NCBI GenBank assembly: GCA_964016885.1 | Contig: OZ024755.1 | Span: forward strand, 2,542,001-2,606,000 | Length of the DNA stretch: 64,000 nucleotides | Direction of reading: 5' to 3' | Origin: Eledone cirrhosa | Lineage: Eukaryota | Part shown: in pieces, positions 1,715 through 61,234 of the stretch | Position numbering within the stretch: position 1 is the stretch's first letter | Layout: every line of letters starts with the position of its first letter | Translations under genes and position numbers: made by a program | The notes under the pieces: model-generated | Seen by the model: the letters and a program-made list of their open reading frames with translations, nothing else | Databases searched by the model: none | What the model was told of the DNA's origin: nothing

Positions 1715-1790
1715 TAAAATCCGAAGAGGGCTCGTTAAAGGTGAAAGCAACGATTCTTTGCTTAAACTTTAATCTGTTATTTTAGTAAAT
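1715..1790 (+). mobile_element. Short (TA)n-embedded element; second copy at 35661-35727 (-)
   Basis: CGTTAA.GGTGAAAGCA.CGATTCTTTGCTTAAACTTT.AATCTGTTATTTTA is shared in inverse orientation; preceded by a CCGAAGA/CAGAAGA core-like motif. Confidence 0.6.
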
Positions 1791-4270: not shown

Positions 4271-4442
4271 ACATCATTGCTTTTGATGTAATCCAAAGAG
4301 TAAGAAGTCATTGGGATTGAAAGTTTTTAAACGTCGGAAATGGAGAAAGTCAAAAGTGAGAAATGACTTAACAAGGAGTCGAAACCAGAGTTAGTATAGT
4401 CTAACATTCAACAGCTGGCAGAATGATATATAAATATGTAGG

Positions 4443-4622
4443 TAAGTTATTCCGGGTTGAATCGGAGGTAACCACAGTAAGTAAGGTACTCAAGACATAG
4501 CAGAGTATAAAAGTTTTAATATAGATGAGATTCAACAGGACTAGAACTGTTTCATTCTTTAGAAATCACCAGATTCCTGATGATTTCTAAAGAATGAAAC
4601 AGTTCTAGTCCTGTAGAATCTC
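4443..4622. mobile_element. Hammerhead-carrying short element, family A (retrozyme/PLE-like), fold-back copy
   Basis: Minus-strand tail (...ACTGTGGTTACCTCCGATTCAACCCGGAATAAC) is shared with 50870-50952 and 51195-51278. 4528-4622 is a near-perfect palindrome. Flanked by TA-rich sequence and (TATG)n. Confidence 0.8.
4571..4621 (+). ncRNA. Type I hammerhead ribozyme motif
   Basis: AGATTC-CTGATGA-t TTC taaa GAA t-GAAA-CAG ttctagtc CTG-TA-GAATCT: 6-bp stem I, intact core, stem III, GUA triplet (predicted cut after 4615). The first pair of stem II is U-U rather than G-C. Confidence 0.75.
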
Positions 4623-5409: not shown

Positions 5410-6706
5410 ATATGTTATATATATATATATATACATACATACACACATACACATATATATATATATACATATACACACATATATATATATACATATATAC
5501 ATACATATACATATACACATATATATACATATATATACACATATACATATATATATATACATATATATACACATATACATATACATATATATACACATAT
5601 ATATACATATACATATATATACATATACATATACATATACATATATATACATATACATATACATATATATACATATATATAAATATATATACATATATAT
5701 ACACATATATATATACATATATATATACATATACATATATATACACATATATATATATATACATATACATATATATACACATATATATACATATACATAT
5801 ATATACACATATATATATATATACATATACATATATATACACATATATATATATATACATATACATATATATACACATATATATATATATATATATACAT
5901 ATATATACACATATATATATATATATATATACATATATATACACATATATATATATATATATATACATATACATACACATATATATATACATATATATAC
6001 ATATACATATATATATACATACACATATATATATACATACACATATATACATATACATATACACACATATATATATATACATATATACACATATATATAT
6101 ATACATATATACACATATATATATATACATATATACACATATATATATATACATATATACACATATATATATATACATATATACACATATATATATATAC
6201 ATATATACACATATATATATATACATATATACACATATATATATACATATATACACATATATATATATACATATATACACATATATATATATATACATGG
6301 TGGCTGCCAACTCGTTTTCGAGTACGGCCACTACTTTATATCCATGTAGGAGAACCCCTACCGATGCACTGAACGAGTGTGACTTTTGAGTCCAGCCAGC
6401 GACTTGAAAACTCTGGTACAAACACTACACTTGTGACAATTATTGACACATAGTGCTGGGCCCATGGTACCATGTGACAAGTGCAGAGAGATCTCCAGAT
6501 ATAAAGCAATGCCTGTGCCATGAAGCTTTTATAGTGAGCAAAGGCATTGCACAGAGCCAGTCCCACTCTCTTAACCAAGATGATATTTACCAAAAAGTAG
6601 AACAAGTCAACATCATTGGATACCATCAGGGTTGCAGGTGTTATATCAGAGTTTTCCTTCTCCTAGAATTCTGCCTTGACAAAGGCTAAGGGGTCATCTC
6701 TCCCGG

Positions 6707-6738
<32 letters not shown>

Positions 6739-18480: not shown

Positions 18481-18921
18481 TCTATCTATCTATCTAAGGC
18501 GGGTAAAATTCCCGAGATCCATGGACGAGTTCTCTCCAGCAGTCTCTGTCCCTCATTATCGCTGCCATATCCTGCATCTCCAACAGACCAGTGTTTGTCC
18601 TTAGGGCATCAACATATGTTAACCTTGGTCTTCCTTTTCTAGTGTGTCCATGTAGGGGCTCCCAAAGGAGCACTGAGTGCAATGTCAACTCTGGATGTCG
18701 GTGAGCATGTCCAGCCAACCTCAGTCTCCTCTGTCACTTTTGAGCTGACTTTTGCTCCCATACAGCTCTGAGTTTTTCATCCTCAGTGTATACTGATTAA
18801 TGTTCAGAGCCATCCTCAGCATTCTCGTGTAGCACCCATCCACCATCTGAAAATCCGCCTCTTCATTGCTGTAGTGGAGTCTGTGCTGCTGTATGGGTCT
18901 GAGACTTGGACACTGACCAAG

Positions 18922-18925
<4 letters not shown>
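18481..18925 (-). mobile_element. RTE-clade LINE 3' fragment with inverted 5' segment
   Basis: Minus strand: DGCYTRMLRMALN...[35 protein letters not shown], stop, (TAGA)n tail. Plus strand 18846-18925: LKIRLFIAVVESVLLYGSETWTLTKS. Confidence 0.85.
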
Positions 18926-18964
<39 letters not shown>

Positions 18965-18965
18965 C

Positions 18966-19100
18966 GAAGGAAATGTGGTAAGGAACCAAGTGGACCATAA
19001 CGCACCGAAGTACTCAATACTTAGGGTAATAGAATGGGTAATAGTCCAGAATTAGCCGTCGAAACGGCTTCAGCTCAGCCGTCGAGGTCCTACTCGTTCC
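18966..19100. mobile_element. Family B short element (inverted tail + GAAA/stem/GTC half-hammerhead-like part)
   Basis: Homologous to 25059-25217, 31619-31725 and 49597-49657; contains GAAACGGCT tcagctc AGCCGTC. Confidence 0.7.
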
Positions 19101-35643: not shown

Positions 35644-35747
35644 TATATATATATATATATATTAAAATAACAGATTAAAGTTTAAGCAAAGAATCGCTGC
35701 TTTCACCCTTAACGTGATCTTCTGAAACTATATATATATATATATAT

Positions 35748-35940
35748 AAATGGCTTCTACAGGACTAGAACTGTTTCATTGGGGAGAAATCACCAGGAAA
35801 TCTTTGGTGACGGTTAAGAGGGGCACAGTAAAGTGCTAAAAGATAAGTCTATCCCGCCTCTAATCGAGGATAACCACAATAAGTTAGTTACTCAATACAT
35901 AGCAGAGTATAAATATTTAATATAGAAATGGCTTCTACGG
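35748..35940 (-). mobile_element. Family A element, complete monomer with terminal direct repeat spanning the HHR cleavage site
   Basis: AAATGGCTTCTAC occurs at 35748-35760 and 35926-35938. Between them, on the minus strand: tail, ~50-nt linker, then HHR with a mutated core (CTGGTGA...GAAACAG...CTGTA). Confidence 0.7.
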
Positions 35941-35965
35941 AAAACGATTTTTGAAGAAAGTTTTG

Positions 35966-36006
<41 letters not shown>

Positions 36007-36067: not shown

Positions 36068-36119
<52 letters not shown>

Positions 36120-36471
36120 TAAATATATATATATAGCAAAACCTTCTTCAAAAATCGCTTTCTGAGGAAAGCAAAGCCTGATCAAAGTTTGGTATTATAG
36201 CTACAATAGAACTGTAGTCACGTATGTTGATATCAGATATATATATACACACCTATGATTATATACGTATGTGTGTATGTGGGTGTATGTATAGACAAAT
36301 TTGTTCGAAGCACAACGAAGATTCATTTCTTCATTGACATATATAGTGGAAGAGAAACTGGTTGACGGGTAAGGGGGGGGGGGGATATTGATATGATTCC
36401 ATTTATACGTGCACGTTTAAAGTCTCGTATTACAAATATATAAACACAAACATATACACACTCTCTCTCTC

Positions 36472-47010: not shown

Positions 47011-47195
47011 TATTTATACAAGTAAATGTGTAGTATACTTTTCATAACGAAACTTTACCTTCTATTAAACTTTGATTACTGACATAGGTATCGTATTTAT
47101 TATTTATTCACGTGTGAACTTTTGTCTTTTGCTAACTGTACTCTCTATATATTTTAATATCACCACCACCCTTATGACTATTATACATATATACA

Positions 47196-47605
47196 CATGG
47201 TGGCTGCCAACTCGTTTTCGAGTACGGCCACTACTTTATATCCATGTAGGAGAACTCCTACCGATGCGCTGAATGAGTGTGACTTTTTAGTCCAGCCAGC
47301 GACTTGAAAACTCTGGTACAAACACTACACTTGTGACAATTATTGACACATAGTGCTGGGCCCAAGGTACCATGTGACGACAAGTGCAGAGAGATCTCCA
47401 GATATAAAGCAATGCCTGTGCCGTGAAGCTTTTATAGTGAGCAAAGGCACTGCACAAAGCCAGTCCCACTCCCTTAACCAAGATGATATTTACCAAAAAG
47501 AAGAACAAGTCAACATCATTGGATACCATCAGGGTTGCAGGTGTTATATCAGAGGTTTCCTTCTCCTAGAATTCTGCCTTGACAAAGGCTAAGGGGTCAT
47601 CTCTC
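47196..47605 (-). mobile_element. Family D second copy
   Basis: Same ends as 6296-6702; a diverged relative lies at ~48030-48195 (CAATGCCTGTGC..TGAAG..TTT..AGTG..AAAGGC.TTGCAC). Confidence 0.7.
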
Positions 47606-47989
47606 ATCATATACATACATATATACATATATATATACATACATATATACATTCCAAAAATGTTGCATCTAATAACTGCATATACACATGTACAGATAGT
47701 AAGCATATACACATGCACACATACAACGTAAAACATCCACATCCACACATACAATAACATCCATACCTACAGATGCAGACATGCAGACATACATACATAT
47801 CTACCTTGTTGGTGTTGTGTAAATTCCAATGAGAGAGTCTTGTGTCTATGTTAGAAACCGACTCTCTCTCTCTATTGGGAAAAAATTTGTGAAATTATAA
47901 AACCAGAAGAACATACATACATACATACATACATACATACATACATACATACATACATACATACATACATACATACATACATACATACA

Positions 47990-48025
<36 letters not shown>

Positions 48026-49596
48026 TATGACGGCTGCAAACTCTGCTAAGAGTATTGAAATCGCTTGTCAGATTATAGAGTTTGGTGCACTTTTAGGCTA
48101 TGGTCAGCCACACGAACCTGTAACATATCCTGAACAAACAATGCCTGTGCTTTGAAGGTTTTTTTAAGTGGGGAAAGGCCTTGCACTCGACCATACATAC
48201 GTTGTGAAGTGAACTCACTAACCATTCGGCCTTGCTATGTCCAAGTAGTTTTCACAGGCTTGCTGCAAATCAATGTTAACGAAATCAATATCATTCAACT
48301 CTTTATGGTGTAAGATCAATAAATAATCGTGTATGCGTGCTCAGACAGGTCCAAATTGGTTGGTATGGTTTTCATAATCGTGCAAGGGTTTGGGGCCTAT
48401 ATTAAGGAATTAACCGAATCTCTAAGTAGACATATATATTTGGTAATCAAGTCTGTATGTTAAACCTGCATGTGTGTGTTATTAGTAAATTAACAAATTA
48501 GACCTGACAATTCAATTTTGCCTGAGTATGCGTATCTATATAAAGTTTATAAGCTATTATTTGCTTTGTATCCAGAAAGAGTAATTAATGTTTGATGTGC
48601 GGAGGGCGGTAACAAATGTTGAAATTAGTGAGATTGATTGCTTTTTCTGAGCAGAGAAAGAAAAACCTGTTATTTAACAACGGTGTCTATTTTATCACAT
48701 GCAGACTAAATGTATGTTTAGAAAGGGGAAAAATAATAATAATAAAGAAAATATACGAGCATAAGTTTACCTTGAATTTCTAATCACCTTAACGCTATGT
48801 AGTGATATATTTAAGTGAGAGAGAGCGAGACAGGGGCTATAAAGGGAAAGGGAGTAAGCGTGGGGGAGACAGAAAAAGATAAATAACATCTTCCTGTAAT
48901 GGAGCTATTGGTTGTTATGTCAGCTCAGTTGTTACATTAAATAATAATAGTGTTTGAGCTCATATTCTATACAAGATAAACGCATTTAACGTTCATGCTT
49001 ATAATACAAAACAATATTATCTGAAGCTCTAGTAATTTTTGTGTATACTAGAGCTAACTAATGGCTTTATCTTTGACTGTGGTAATATTTGTTGCTATAA
49101 AATTTCTTCTAAATCGTACTAGATTATGTTATAAATGATTATAAACACTATTAAACATACAGCATTCTTCGGAGACTACATTTGGTATCGATGCCATAAT
49201 GCAATGAAATGAATGCAGAAATACCGACAGAGTTTCCTACGCAGTTAATATAAGCATTTATTTATATGTCCAATATGAATCCTCCCTATAAATATAAATA
49301 TATATCACTGATAGGTAATCGAATGTTTTGTCGTAAAACCGAGGAACCAAGAATAATATAAAACAAAACGCAGAGATATGTAAATAACGATATTTCTCAC
49401 AACTTTAAACAAGGTTCGAACCAACTGGTCTTGTTTTATATTATTTTATATATATCATCATGATTTTCTCGGCTGGTCCACATTATATCATTATATACCA
49501 CCTGGTTTAGCTGGGAATATGGTGTTTACATTTCCCAAAGAGAGAGTGAGAGAGAAACACACACATACATACATACCTATATATATATATATATAT

Positions 49597-49657
49597 AGTC
49601 CTGATCTAGCTGCCCAAACGGCCGGAGCTCAACCGTCGGGGTCCGGACTCGTTCCCC
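49597..49657 (+). mobile_element. Family B fragment
   Basis: AAACGGCCGGAGCTCAACCGTCGGGGTCCGGACTCGTTCC is similar to 19062-19100. Confidence 0.6.
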
Positions 49658-49676
49658 CTCTCTCTATATATATATA

Positions 49677-49841
49677 AATGGTTTCTACAGGACTAGAACT
49701 GTTTGATTGGAAAGATACCATCGGGGGTTTTCCTGGTGGTTTCTTTTGAATGGAACAGTTCTAGCCCTGTAGAAGCCATTTCTATATTAGATTTGATGTA
49801 TTGATGTACTTACTGTGGTTACTCCAGATTGAACCTGGGGC

Positions 49842-49843
<2 letters not shown>
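49677..49843. mobile_element. Family A element, degenerate fold-back copy
   Basis: Inverted arms TTCTACAGGACTAGAACTGTTT / AACAGTTCTAGCCCTGTAGAA followed by tail TACTTACTGTGGTTAC; lies between (TA)n tracts; cores are mutated. Confidence 0.75.
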
Positions 49844-49872
<29 letters not shown>

Positions 49873-49963
49873 GTTGAAGTTTCCGTTGAAAAAGTCAGAG
49901 GAATGAAGAGTGCTCTATGTAAGTTACAGAGCTAAATATTTAATGTATAATAAACAATACAAT

Positions 49964-50036
49964 ATAATTACCTCATTACCAGAGGTTTCCCGAATAAGAC
50001 GGATACAAGAAAGGTCCGCATTCGTTCGTCAGACAA
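49964..50036 (-). ncRNA. Hammerhead motif with long stem II, truncated in stem I (family C element ~49870-50087)
   Basis: Reverse complement CTGACGA-a CGAAT GCGGA...TCCGT ctt ATTCG g-GAAA-CCTC tggtaat GAGG-TA. The adjacent tail GAGTGCTCACC..GGTGAACCTACA..AACT.CA.GTTACACTCCC is shared with 34183-34228. Confidence 0.6.
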
Positions 50037-50344
50037 GATGAGTGCTCACCTTGGTGAACCTACAACAACTTCATGTTACACTCCCAAGATATATATATAT
50101 ATTTTAAAGTGTTTATTTTGTTTCTATACTGAGAAATGTTCAATGTGTTCAGAGTAAGATAATCTCGAATCACACTTGTTCCTACACACCATAAATTATA
50201 TATAACACATCTTCCTTCTTCAAGTATTTACTCTTGTACTCCATATGTTAAAGTATTCTTCAAAGGAAAAAATAAACAAGGCCATATACATATGTATTCA
50301 TATAGCTTACTTTCCATATACATACATATATATATACATATATA

Positions 50345-50554
<210 letters not shown>

Positions 50555-50563
50555 TAAATATAT

Positions 50564-50644
<81 letters not shown>

Positions 50645-50672
50645 TATACACATATATATATATATATATATA

Positions 50673-50740
<68 letters not shown>

Positions 50741-50755
50741 CTTTTTATATAGATA

Positions 50756-50806
50756 AGCTTATACGGGACTAGAACTGTTTCGTTCGTGAGAAATCATCAG
50801 GAAGCT
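50756..50806 (-). ncRNA. Type I hammerhead ribozyme motif (mismatches in stems I and III)
   Basis: Reverse complement AGCTTC-CTGATGA-t TTC tcac GAA c-GAAA-CAG ttctagtc CCG-TA-TAAGCT. Confidence 0.6.
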
Positions 50807-50818
50807 GAACATCAGGTC

Positions 50819-50869
50819 AGCTTCCTGATGATTTCTCACGACTGAAACAGTTCTAGTCCTGTAGAAGCT
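50819..50869 (+). ncRNA. Type I hammerhead ribozyme motif
   Basis: AGCTTC-CTGATGA-tttctcacgact-GAAA-CAG ttctagtc CTG-TA-GAAGCT. Stem I covaries with the 4571 copy (A-T vs C-G); stem II is weak. Confidence 0.7.
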
Positions 50870-50950
50870 TTTCTATATTAAACATTTATACTCTGCTATG
50901 TATTGAGTACCTTACTTACTGTGGTTACCCCCCGAGTGAACCCGGGATAA

Positions 50951-50996
<46 letters not shown>

Positions 50997-50997
<1 letters not shown>

Positions 50998-51058
50998 GTA
51001 GGTCCCGGGTTGAGTCGGGGATAACCACAGTAAGTAAGGTACTCAATACATGGCAGAG

Positions 51059-51104
<46 letters not shown>

Positions 51105-51276
51105 TGAGATTCTACAGGACTAGAAATGTTTCATTCATTAGAAATCATCATGATGTTTTCTAATGAATGAAACAGTTCTAGTCCTGTAGAATCTCATCTA
51201 TATTAAAACTGTTATACTCTGCTATGTATTGAGTACCTTACTTACTGTGGTTACCTCCGATTCAACCCGGAATAAC

Positions 51277-51279
<3 letters not shown>
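50997..51279. mobile_element. Family A element, fully palindromic copy (two arms fused at the CTGATGA core)
   Basis: Mirror arms about a centre ATCATCATGATG near 51150. Both arms retain GAAAC..TTCTAGTCCTGTAGAATCTC and the tail; the left arm is interrupted by (TA)n. Confidence 0.8.
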
Positions 51280-51337
<58 letters not shown>

Positions 51338-51727
51338 TGTGTATATATATATATACTGTTCAAGTCGATAATGAAAGAGCTATAAATTTAATTAAGCTTC
51401 ATTTCATGTGGGGTGAAGAACTATGCTGTAGTTAATTATAACTAATCAGCGAAGAAAGCGCCATAAAAATGGAGTGTTCTAATGAACTTTCATTAGAAAC
51501 TATTATATAATTTTAGTGTTATAAGTAGGAGAGATAATTAAATTTTCTAGCGAAAATATTCATCTAATTGTATGATTAACGTTTTACTTGTGTTATATAT
51601 ATATGTATATATGTATATATGTGTGAGTGTGTATGTATATCTATATGTATGTATGTTTGTATGTATGTAAATATATATACATATATATATATATAAAGCA
51701 GTATATATGTATATATATATAAAGCAG

Positions 51728-51823: not shown

Positions 51824-51861
<38 letters not shown>

Positions 51862-52032: not shown

Positions 52033-52214
52033 TAAATGTGGGAGCCCCTACATGGACACACTGGAAGAGGAAGACCAAGGTTGACATATGTTGATGCCCT
52101 AAGGACAGACACTGGTGTGTTGGAGACGCAGGACATGGCAGCGATAATGAGGGACAGAGACCACTGGAGAGAACTCGTCCATGGATGTCGGGAATTTTAC
52201 CCGCCCTAGATAGA
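52033..52214 (+). mobile_element. RTE-clade LINE 3' end, same family as 18481
   Basis: [44 protein letters not shown] followed by ATAGA and (TA)n. Confidence 0.85.
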
Positions 52215-57364: not shown

Positions 57365-57428
57365 CCGTGAAGGTTGCATTTTTCACGGTACGTCAATATT
57401 TATTTATAAAACTAATCTATATTATATT

Positions 57429-57484
57429 TTATCTGATGAAAGCGCACCATAATCTGCCTTGGTGGCCCTTGAAATATGTATAAT
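57429..57484 (+). ncRNA. Degenerate hammerhead candidate
   Basis: CTGATGA-AAGcgCACCA taatctgcct TGGTGgccCTT-GAAA-tatgta; lies in a unique island between (TA)n tracts; stem I register is imperfect. Confidence 0.4.
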
Positions 57485-57521
57485 GAAATAAATATGGTTT
57501 TATAAATATAGTTTCCATTTG

Positions 57522-57581
<60 letters not shown>

Positions 57582-57586
<5 letters not shown>

Positions 57587-57606
57587 CCGATTCAACCCGG
57601 AATAAC

Positions 57607-57609
<3 letters not shown>
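57582..57609 (+). mobile_element. Family A extreme 3' fragment
   Basis: TACCTCCGATTCAACCCGGAATAACGTA is identical to 51252-51279 and is isolated in (TA)n. Confidence 0.75.

Positions 57610-57649
<40 letters not shown>

Positions 57650-60887: not shown

Positions 60888-61234
<347 letters not shown>

What the first reader, a model, noticed from the sequence alone, without database searches (positions are those of the whole stretch)
50752..51279. Hammerhead elements occur as fold-backs with divergent ribozymes on both strands
Seen: four of five family A copies are palindromic, with the inversion junction at or just 5' of the CTGATGA core. Arms end at TA-like internal sites (..CTATA, ..AACTTAT/AACGTAT) that merge with the flanking (TA)n. 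Just upstream of the core is a short anti-core sequence (CATCAGG..CCTGATG at 50810; TCACCA..TGGTGA in the 35.8-kb monomer). Inference: (TA)n ends prime reverse transcription at internal microhomologies, and a hairpin or second priming event creates the inversion. The anti-core hairpin may also switch the ribozyme off. By TIR structure alone these would be mis-annotated as MITEs.
Basis: partly seen in the sequence, partly recalled or inferred. Interest (0 to 1): 0.7.

Follow-up and report, generated by a model that had tools for sequence, protein, structure and literature searches.

The report
Penelope-type fold-back stubs with hammerheads
These small palindromes are most likely dead tail-end stubs of a Penelope-like jumping gene, inserted head to head in TA repeats with at most one intact-looking self-cutting RNA motif each, which is a known insertion pattern rather than a two-strand ribozyme device.

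Summary
The palindromes are real. Four of five copies are head-to-head fold-backs of a type I hammerhead-bearing arm. Each has its own junction near the core, one short arm (+7 to +21 nt after the cut site) and one long arm ending in a hairpin (+70 to +103). Reads from the same species show an abundant family, 12 different strand-switch joints among 15 shown, several ends, compensatory stem I change and a variable loop II. This refutes a MITE amplified as one unit.

The title claim fails: 2 of 8 arms keep an intact-looking ribozyme, no copy has two, and the fold-back hairpin buries the core (57-72 kcal/mol). The anti-core at 50810 is nearly absent from other copies, so it is a junction scar, not a family switch. 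Priming at TA microhomologies is unproven.

Inverted truncated partner, one-sided tail, (TA)n target and opposite-strand hammerhead pairs are published hallmarks of Penelope-like elements (PLEs). Best reading: truncated or non-autonomous PLE end insertions whose mirror arm is made at insertion. No parent ORF was found. A 78-nt tandem form in the reads is the one lead worth following.

The parts
50741..50808 (-). c4 short (left) arm: stem I 5' strand, core, cut site H17 at 50762, ends 21 nt after the cut in (TA)n. Ribozyme damaged (C.U at the pair closing stem I, A.C in stem III)
50809..50816 (+). 8-nt loop of the c4 fold-back holding the 7-nt anti-core; nearly absent from other copies, read as a templated junction insert
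   Evidence: loop, chance 0.0009; depth 1.8 and 0.6 in bin 50809-50813
50817..50952 (+). c4 long (right) arm: hammerhead, AT-rich spacer, tail and 3' hairpin; ends 89 nt after the cut
50819..50869 (+). type I hammerhead: stem I 50819-24/50864-69, core 50825-31, stem II with U.U base (weakened by a private C at 50842), GAAA 50844-47, 4-bp stem III with near-palindromic loop, cut after 50863
   Evidence: variants
50923..50952 (+). 3' terminal stem-loop, predicted in all 6 tails folded (-6.4 to -9.2 kcal/mol); candidate protein-binding or RT start signal (inferred)
50953..50996 (.). (TA)n between c4 and tail piece B
50997..51066 (-). piece B: tail and hairpin only; about equally close to the c4, c5 and c1 tails (scores 52, 51, 50), so either the tail of c5's left arm cut off by a TA run or an older insertion
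51067..51102 (.). (TA)n at the internal TATA-like site, in register between B and the c5 left arm
51103..51150 (-). c5 short arm: starts inside the core (no C3, no stem I 5' strand), ends 10 nt after the cut site; not a ribozyme
51151..51277 (+). c5 long arm: starts inside the core, A9 changed, ends 89 nt after the cut site; not a ribozyme
4431..4622 (.). c1 fold-back: long arm on - (no stem I 5' strand, A6G), short arm on + with the best-preserved hammerhead (core 4577, cut after 4615); 2-nt overlap at the junction; ends in (GTAT)n
35749..35939 (-). c2, not palindromic: permuted unit of 178 nt from cut site (35936) to cut site (35758), one core (A6G), 6-nt anti-core at 35805-35810, a linker seen nowhere else in the window
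49677..49841 (.). c3 fold-back, decayed: both cores mutated, long arm with an internal deletion
57582..57610 (+). c6: 29-nt terminal hairpin piece between two (TA)n runs, identical to the c5 end

Best explanation
The copies are severely 5'-truncated (or non-autonomous) insertions of the hammerhead-bearing end (pseudo-LTR) of an endonuclease-positive Penelope-like retroelement that targets (TA)n, most likely Neptune-like (clade inferred from target plus hammerhead). Steps: (1) a PLE protein nicks (TA)n (inferred from the literature). (2) Reverse transcription starts inside an uncleaved RNA at one of a few preferred points: behind the 3' hairpin, about 89 nt after the cut site, or 7-21 nt after it (ends shown; initiation inferred). 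(3) Synthesis stops at or just upstream of the hammerhead core, probably near the RNA's 5' end (junction positions shown; cause inferred). (4) The same template, or its cDNA, is copied back by self-priming, or a second primed strand is joined head to head, which gives the mirror arm, a copy-specific junction, and small templated inserts such as the anti-core (shared loop II and differing junctions shown; route inferred). (5) The short arm is joined to the target, often at a TATA-like spot. The product is inert as a ribozyme: a read-through RNA folds into a long hairpin and would more likely feed small-RNA silencing.
For: Hammerhead: core plus 6-bp stem I and 4-bp stem III in c1 right and c4 right. 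83.2% of cells paired against 30.6-48.1% when slid. C-G to A-U change in stem I between subfamilies, seen in reads as 50821 C>A 785/971 and 813/966 and 50867 G>T 1210/3010 and 1455/3043, not phased. Loop II variants reach 41%, while the two listed core variants are 4.5-6.7%. Junctions: 4 different in 4 copies; 12 different opposite-strand joints among 15 shown, each with one side in 50819-50843. One-sided tail in 4 of 4 fold-backs; read ends behind 50882 run into (TA)n (543 and 580 reads), and others run on through the hairpin. Single template: loop II identical between arms in 3 of 4 copies. Literature: inverted 5'-truncated partner, tail on one end only, (TA)n bias (PMC8557442); head-to-head palindromic junctions read as self-priming (PMC3846280); paired hammerheads 100-700 bp apart on opposite strands (PMC4209133); in vitro RT start in a stem loop 85-92 nt after the cut site by my arithmetic, both strands extended, cleavage not needed (PMC11167929). 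Other PLE-type hammerheads occur in the same window.
Against: No RT or GIY-YIG hit in 150 of 151 six-frame stretches; no genome is held, so no parent element was seen. The one-sided extension is about 70-80 nt, longer than the 30-40 bp tail described. Stem II has U.U or U.C in place of the G10.1-C11.1 pair called highly conserved in PLE hammerheads. No Rfam hammerhead model reaches its threshold. No ORF start is apparent in the arm, unlike the pLTRs of PMC3846280 and PMC11167929. One joint (50822/50843) recurs in 8 contigs of X1 and at 8-9 read starts per run, which could mean some copies spread as units. Head-to-tail 78-nt repeats and the cut-to-cut c2 point to a retrozyme-like template for some copies. 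The joint table does not give polarity, and alignment ends at 50843 may be artefacts of the private base at 50842.
Confidence: 0.72

Rival explanations
1. The template is a non-LTR retrozyme: a small tandem or circular hammerhead RNA (78-nt or 178-nt unit) that borrows PLE proteins. The fold-backs are aborted insertions of it. Same enzymes as the best explanation, but a different master.
For: Three head-to-tail joints all give a 78-nt period (49+29, 64+14, 70+8): 61 reads in X6, 20 in X7. c2 runs 178 nt from cut site to cut site. No ORF in the arm. U.U at the base of helix II occurs in an axolotl retrozyme family that self-cleaves (PMC7229834). Animal retrozymes are argued to derive from pLTRs (10.64898/2026.07.22.740005).
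Against: No tandem array in the window. The 78-nt unit lacks the tail and hairpin that long arms carry. c2 folded as a circle is no more stable than shuffles (-29.8 against -25.5 +/- 4.4, z -0.98, 48% paired), and its linker occurs nowhere else in the window. Tandem-joint reads are about 1% or less of those laid.
Confidence: 0.13
2. The palindromic unit is itself mobile: fold-back copies are transcribed from AT-rich flanks and re-inserted whole by PLE proteins, as an RNA-borne MITE look-alike.
For: The joint 50822/50843 recurs (8 contigs in X1, 1 in X4, 8 and 9 read starts). Fold-backs are 4 of 5 copies. pLTRs alone suffice for mobilisation in trans (PMC3846280).
Against: All 4 window junctions differ, also between c1 and c5, whose arms differ at only 2-4 of 43 core positions. 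The recurring joint sits next to the reference's private base, so it may be an alignment effect. A hairpin of -86 to -108 kcal/mol is a poor RT template and a likely silencing trigger.
Confidence: 0.07
3. Single-arm retro-insertions were turned into palindromes later at the DNA level, by breaks at (TA)n hairpins and fold-back repair.
For: All copies sit in or near simple repeats; B/c5 and c6 show TA runs inside the element; two (TA)-centred palindromes lie at 51842 and 55220.
Against: The symmetry centres lie at the hammerhead core, not in the TA runs, and no flanking DNA is duplicated with the arms. None of the dozen or so SINE copies in the window shows such a fold-back in the self-comparison.
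Confidence: 0.05
4. A (TA)n-targeting DNA-transposon MITE whose long terminal inverted repeats resemble a hammerhead by chance.
For: Palindromic layout and TA flanks; no Rfam hammerhead hit at threshold.
Against: The two ends of each copy differ by 60-95 nt and termini differ between copies; junctions differ; tandem and permuted forms exist; the hammerhead stems covary while loop II drifts.
Confidence: 0.03

Closest known systems
Insertions of endonuclease-positive Penelope-like elements (Penelope/Poseidon, Neptune, Nematis) with inverted pLTR and one-sided tail (PMC8557442, passages; PMC3846280, passages and Discussion)
   Same: Head-to-head inverted partner, palindromic junction, extension on one end only, variable truncation, hammerhead in the terminal repeat, (TA)n targets that hide target-site duplications.
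   Different: The whole insertion is only about 165-210 bp with no ORF; the extension is about 70-80 nt rather than 30-40; junctions crowd at the hammerhead core; no parent element seen.
PLE hammerheads, including pairs on opposite strands (PMC4209133, parts 1-2 of 4; figures and supplements not seen)
   Same: Type I topology, palindromic helix III region, dispersed truncated copies, pairs on opposite strands.
   Different: Stem III is 4 bp with an 8-nt near-palindromic loop rather than minimal; stem II is 3 bp on a U.U or U.C mismatch, not G10.1-C11.1; cores are only about 0-25 nt apart rather than 100-700 bp.
Poseidon PAc of Anolis, in vitro (PMC11167929, parts 1-2 of 4)
   Same: AT-rich target; ends at a stem loop 85-92 nt after the hammerhead cut site (here +89 in c4 and c5); more than one start site; uncleaved RNA as template.
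   Different: PAc's hammerhead overlaps the ORF start, and none is apparent here. PAc is not reported there as (TA)n-specific.
Metazoan non-LTR retrozymes (PMC7229834, passages and section 15; preprint 10.64898/2026.07.22.740005, parts 1-2 of 5 and passages)
   Same: Non-coding, type I hammerhead, U.U at the base of helix II (axolotl HHR_Amex2); a 78-nt tandem form and a cut-to-cut unit exist here (unit lengths of 51-972 bp are reported).
   Different: Window copies are inverted pairs, not tandem arrays; c2 does not fold as a stable circle; circular RNA not tested.
MITEs (recalled definition: fixed termini, terminal inverted repeats, uniform length)
   Same: Short, palindromic, numerous, TA-flanked.
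   Different: Termini and centres vary from copy to copy, and the two ends of one copy are unequal.

Membership tests
EN+ Penelope-like element (remnant or non-autonomous derivative) | RT plus GIY-YIG ORF linked to this end | tested here: inconclusive
   No RT or GIY-YIG Pfam hit in 150 of 151 six-frame stretches of the window; no genome held; pattern scans of metagenome and viral contigs found no relative.
EN+ Penelope-like element (remnant or non-autonomous derivative) | type I hammerhead in the terminal repeat | tested here: met
EN+ Penelope-like element (remnant or non-autonomous derivative) | inverted, 5'-truncated partner joined head to head with variable junctions | tested here: met
   4 of 5 copies, 4 different junctions; 12 opposite-strand joints among 15 shown
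EN+ Penelope-like element (remnant or non-autonomous derivative) | tail on one end only | tested here: met
   4 of 4 fold-backs; longer than the published 30-40 bp
EN+ Penelope-like element (remnant or non-autonomous derivative) | AT-rich or (TA)n target (Neptune, Naiad) | tested here: met
   loose ends
EN+ Penelope-like element (remnant or non-autonomous derivative) | target-site duplication; homology to a curated pLTR consensus | not testable with these tools
   Flanks are simple repeats, no empty site is available, and no repeat library is offered.
Type I hammerhead ribozyme | core C3-A9, G12-A14, U16.1-H17 with stems I and III | tested here: met
   c1 right and c4 right arms only (2 of 8 fold-back arms); c2 has A6G
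Type I hammerhead ribozyme | G10.1-C11.1 pair; match to an Rfam hammerhead model | tested here: not met
   U.U or U.C here; Rfam best 14.6 bits, E 0.5, against a threshold of 48.5, none for c4. Precedent for U.U in PMC7229834.
Type I hammerhead ribozyme | self-cleavage | not testable with these tools
   needs in vitro transcription
Non-LTR retrozyme | two or more tandem units, each with a complete hammerhead | tested here: inconclusive
   None in the window; 78-nt head-to-tail joints in 61 and 20 reads; array length and integrity not seen
Non-LTR retrozyme | stable, highly paired circular monomer | tested here: not met
   c2 as a 178-nt circle: z -0.98 against 200 mononucleotide shuffles, 48% paired; the 78-nt unit was not folded
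Non-LTR retrozyme | circular RNA in tissue | not testable with these tools
   needs RNA data
MITE | fixed termini and one internal junction shared by copies | tested here: not met

The most novel reading that the evidence does not exclude
The family has no coding parent of its own. Its master is a tiny hammerhead array (78-nt period) that makes self-cleaving oligomers or circles, is carried into (TA)n by a PLE protein, and leaves palindromic copies of which some are re-mobilised whole. That would be an RNA-borne MITE mimic linking retrozymes, inverted pLTRs and microsatellite growth. The sharp, countable junctions and ends of thousands of 200-bp copies would also decide between self-priming and two-strand priming in PLE insertion.
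Probability: 0.13. Interest if true: 0.6.

Novelty: new member of a known kind. Interest (0 to 1): 0.27.

Why it matters
As biology it is a known pattern: PLE end stubs with an inverted partner. Its value is practical. First, such copies would be filed as MITEs, and their hairpins draw sub-threshold microRNA-precursor hits, so repeat and small-RNA annotation can be misled. Second, how PLEs build inverted ends is still open in the papers read (PMC8557442, PMC3846280). A family this short and abundant, with a variable 4-nt loop in both arms as a built-in template tag, allows a direct count of one-template against two-template events. Third, the U.U/U.C stem II with a 4-bp near-palindromic stem III is a hammerhead variant that Rfam misses.

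Tried and rejected
Whole-genome mapping: no genome held. Rfam: 0 hits at gathering thresholds in the window; only hairpin-type microRNA models and similar below threshold in 49500-51400; a weak type III hammerhead partial for c1, nothing for c4. The repeat finder was swamped by microsatellites. The bare core heptamer is not enriched (10 matches against 8.04 expected), so it is no evidence by itself. Collection scans: 0 hits; 4 viral loci share only the 24-nt core and stem II and are unrelated. No RNA holder listed; run X4 is of unknown kind, so nothing is said on expression. c2 linker as a duplicate of the tail: not significant (55 of 500 shuffles as high). c2 as a structured circle: rejected (the fold used a slice 3 nt short and is superseded). 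The relaxed hammerhead scan missed c4 right because of its private stem II change. A motif search to name the SINE gave only unrelated papers; the host is an animal, and 'cephalopod-like' is my recall from the SINE motif, untested. Earlier notes by place and by sequence: none; a seven-word search: none. Summed contig depth was not used as a copy number. Absolute hammerhead-fold probabilities from ViennaRNA were not used, because the model gives no credit for core contacts; only differences are quoted.

Full report
1. WHAT IS THERE. The window is AT-rich animal DNA full of microsatellites; no genome is held for it. Family A has five copies and two tail-only pieces: c1 4431-4622, c2 35749-35939, c3 49677-49841, c4 50741-50952, c5 51103-51277, piece B 50997-51066 and c6 57582-57610. 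The finding's interval holds c4, a (TA)n run, B, another (TA)n run and c5. The common arm reads: stem I 5' strand, hammerhead core, stem II, GAAA, stem III, cut site, stem I 3' strand, an AT-rich spacer, a tail of about 70 nt and a terminal stem-loop, which folded in all 6 tails tried (-6.4 to -9.2 kcal/mol). c1, c3, c4 and c5 are head-to-head palindromes (self-matches at E 9e-33, 3e-20, 4e-43 and 2e-48). c2 is a permuted unit of 178 nt from cut site to cut site.

2. IS IT A HAMMERHEAD? The core heptamer alone is not enriched (10 against 8.04 expected), and Rfam gives nothing at threshold. The structure is nevertheless supported. A strict type I scan returned three sites, all family A. A relaxed scan gave 4 hits, 2 of them family A, against a mean of 0.13 and a maximum of 1 in 60 shuffles. 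On the 12-row alignment 83.2% of cells pair against 30.6-48.1% when the partners are slid; 9 of 500 shuffles reach the covariation score, with the caveat that the structure was drawn from these sequences. Stem I changes from C-G in c4 to A-U in c1. In reads the same two positions vary strongly, 50821 C>A in 785/971 and 813/966 and 50867 G>T in 1210/3010 and 1455/3043, though the table does not phase them. Loop II variants reach 41%, whereas the two core variants listed are 4.5-6.7%; 40 variant rows were shown and 98 were not. Stem II rests on U.U or U.C instead of G10.1-C11.1; a self-cleaving axolotl hammerhead has U.U there (PMC7229834, section 15). Cleavage itself is untested.

3. RIBOZYMES ON BOTH STRANDS: NO. 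Of 8 fold-back arms, 2 keep an intact core with a closed stem I and stem III: c1 right and c4 right, the latter with a private change in stem II that about 98% of reads lack. c4 left has mismatches at the base of stem I and in stem III. c1 left lacks the stem I 5' strand. Both c3 cores are mutated. In c5 the junction lies inside the core, so neither arm has C3 or a stem I 5' strand. Only c4 can have been born with two ribozymes. In a read-through RNA the fold-back wins by 72.0 (c4) and 56.9 (c1) kcal/mol over the hammerhead-constrained ensemble, against 5.7 and 4.3 for the motif alone.

4. I laid four runs labelled as the same species on the c4 right arm at 80% likeness: 9,086 and 310 contigs and 7,103 and 7,506 RAD reads matched. 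The family is abundant; these figures are not a copy number. Of 29 joints, 15 were shown. Twelve are opposite-strand joints at 12 different position pairs, each with one side between 50819 and 50843. The table gives no polarity, and ends at 50843 may be alignment effects, so the number of true junction types is uncertain. The window gives four different junctions in four copies: an 8-nt loop (c4), a 2-nt overlap (c1), a junction inside the core (c5) and a decayed one (c3). Ends vary too: short arms stop +7, +9, +10 and +21 nt after the cut site, long arms at +70 (with a deletion), +89, +89 and +103. Every fold-back has one of each. In reads, 543 and 580 loose ends behind 50882 run into (TA)n and larger groups run on through the hairpin (24 of 409 rows shown). 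A MITE amplified as one unit is refuted. Against full independence, the joint 50822/50843 recurs in 8 contigs and at 8-9 read starts per run.

5. ANTI-CORE. Both motifs are unlikely by chance (0.0009 and 0.004) and would add about 5.5 (c4) and 4.7 (c2) kcal/mol against the ribozyme fold in a transcript that starts there. But depth in the first anti-core bin is 1.8 and 0.6 against about 5,300 and 5,800 over the core, and 769 and 758 reads carry a different, T-rich flank before 50818. The c4 anti-core is therefore close to private. The c2 anti-core mirrors c2's own core variant and was not tested in reads. I read both as short templated inserts left by fold-back synthesis (inference).

6. MICROHOMOLOGY PRIMING. 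Of 5 short ends (four fold-back arms and c2), one has a clean 5-nt match to the TA run (c5 left), three are near matches and one has none (c1 right, into (GTAT)n). Long ends cannot be scored because the template beyond them is unknown. Joining of the second arm by microhomology, or later deletion between an internal TATA and the flank, explains the same data. B/c5 and c6 show TA runs at internal sites. In the Anolis element studied in vitro, reverse transcription starts at sites not homologous to the cut DNA. The idea is possible but not shown.

7. MECHANISM. Shown: variable junctions near the core, a one-sided tail, simple-repeat flanks, and arms that share their loop II in 3 of 4 copies (c3 differs and is the most decayed). 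Inferred: a PLE protein nicks (TA)n and copies an uncleaved RNA from one of a few internal start points. Synthesis ends near the hammerhead's 5' side, and the mirror arm is copied from the same template by self-priming, or comes from a second primed strand joined head to head. The shared loop favours one template or one source locus. The result is inert as a ribozyme; inverted Penelope copies are reported to match siRNAs (PMC3681739, passages). Confidence 0.72. No parent was seen: 150 of 151 six-frame stretches gave no RT or GIY-YIG hit.

8. THE LEAD THAT REMAINS. Three head-to-tail joints all imply a 78-nt period (61 reads in X6, 20 in X7), and the T-rich flank seen before stem I is the same as the spacer of that repeat. 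Together with the cut-to-cut c2, this suggests a retrozyme-like form within the family. Against it as the master: the unit lacks the tail, c2 is not a stable circle (z -0.98), and c2's linker is unique in the window.

9. COMPARISON WITH WHAT IS KNOWN. PMC8557442 (passages) describes the inverted 5'-truncated partner, the tail at one end, and (TA)n bias in Naiad and, as a hypothesis, Neptune; Naiads lack hammerheads, which points away from them. PMC3846280 (passages and Discussion) describes head-to-head palindromic junctions and reads them as self-priming. PMC4209133 (parts 1-2 of 4) reports hammerhead pairs on opposite strands 100-700 bp apart, tied to truncated PLEs. PMC11167929 (parts 1-2 of 4) places the cut 26 nt and the RT start 111-118 nt into the ORF, so 85-92 nt apart by my arithmetic; here it is +89. 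The retrozyme preprint (parts 1-2 of 5 and passages) derives animal retrozymes from pLTRs. PMC6765202 and PMC13282606 (no mention of hammerheads) were seen as passages. Lunse et al. was seen only as a reference entry. No listing or 51 describes this family; repeat libraries and supplements were not seen and may hold it. Earlier notes of this scan reach similar readings in other genomes; they are unchecked and not counted as evidence.

10. VERDICT. Observation partly confirmed, interpretation partly supported. It works like the inverted end of a Penelope-like element and meets the structural tests; membership awaits the parent ORF. New member of a known kind, interest 0.27.

Noticed in passing
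reads laid on window 50809-50958: Head-to-tail repeats of the hammerhead with a 78-nt period and no tail (61 and 20 reads); about 760 reads per RAD run carry the same T-rich spacer upstream of stem I. Run X4 shows one tandem joint through a short TA run.
   Followed up: partly
window 50860-50877, 51185-51202, 35919-35938: A small hairpin across the cut site and the stem I 3' strand is predicted in all three subfamilies (-4.1, -3.4, -3.2 kcal/mol); it is lost in c1 left, and the c3 slice missed the site. It is a better candidate for a family-wide off-switch than the anti-core.
   Followed up: partly
window 50880-50910: By eye the start of the tail resembles a decayed second unit in register with the 78-nt period (9 of 15 letters match the stem I strand and core 75 nt upstream); no statistics run.
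   Followed up: no
window 54980 (+) and 10000 (-): A second hammerhead family of the classic minimal PLE type: extra base after A9, G-C at the base of stem II, tiny palindromic stem III. The two copies are 74% alike over 118 nt.
   Followed up: partly
window 57365-57500: A third hammerhead-like motif (core 57433, stem I of 8 pairs, long stem II) between (TA)n runs, with a hairpin at its left edge.
   Followed up: no
window 1715-1790 and 35662-35730: Two related pieces (96% over 52 nt) between (TA)n runs with a decayed hammerhead-like layout.
   Followed up: no
window 60892-61134: Another long palindrome ending in (TA)n, with no hammerhead core seen; could be the inverted end of a hammerhead-free PLE.
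   Followed up: no
window 35940-35968 and 36097-36130: The 30 nt fused to c2 just at its upstream cut site resemble the end of another (TA)n-flanked element 130 nt away.
   Followed up: no
window 50886-51063: The c4 tail, (TA)n and piece B form a tail-to-tail hairpin that draws sub-threshold microRNA-precursor hits in Rfam (best 74.4 bits against 110).
   Followed up: partly
window 12752-59243, about a dozen places: A SINE-like family of about 200-240 bp with a tRNA-like head; it reminds me of cephalopod SINEs (recalled, not confirmed).
   Followed up: no
window 6282-6718 and 47182-47621; 18495-19020 and 52039-52208: LINE-like 3' fragments: a 95%-identical 440-bp pair with a weak C2H2 zinc finger hit (E 3.6e-5, below cut-off), and a second pair whose translation recalls a LINE RT end (recalled).
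   Followed up: no
L001-L004, 2975-3029: Four viral contigs, identical over the stretch read, carry a type III hammerhead-like motif (26.3 bits, E 4.5e-4, below threshold) with the same U.U-based 3-bp stem II as family A, just upstream of an ATG.
   Followed up: partly
window 51842 and 55220: Two perfect palindromes centred in (TA)n runs with 34- and 39-nt arms that include non-repeat flank.
   Followed up: no
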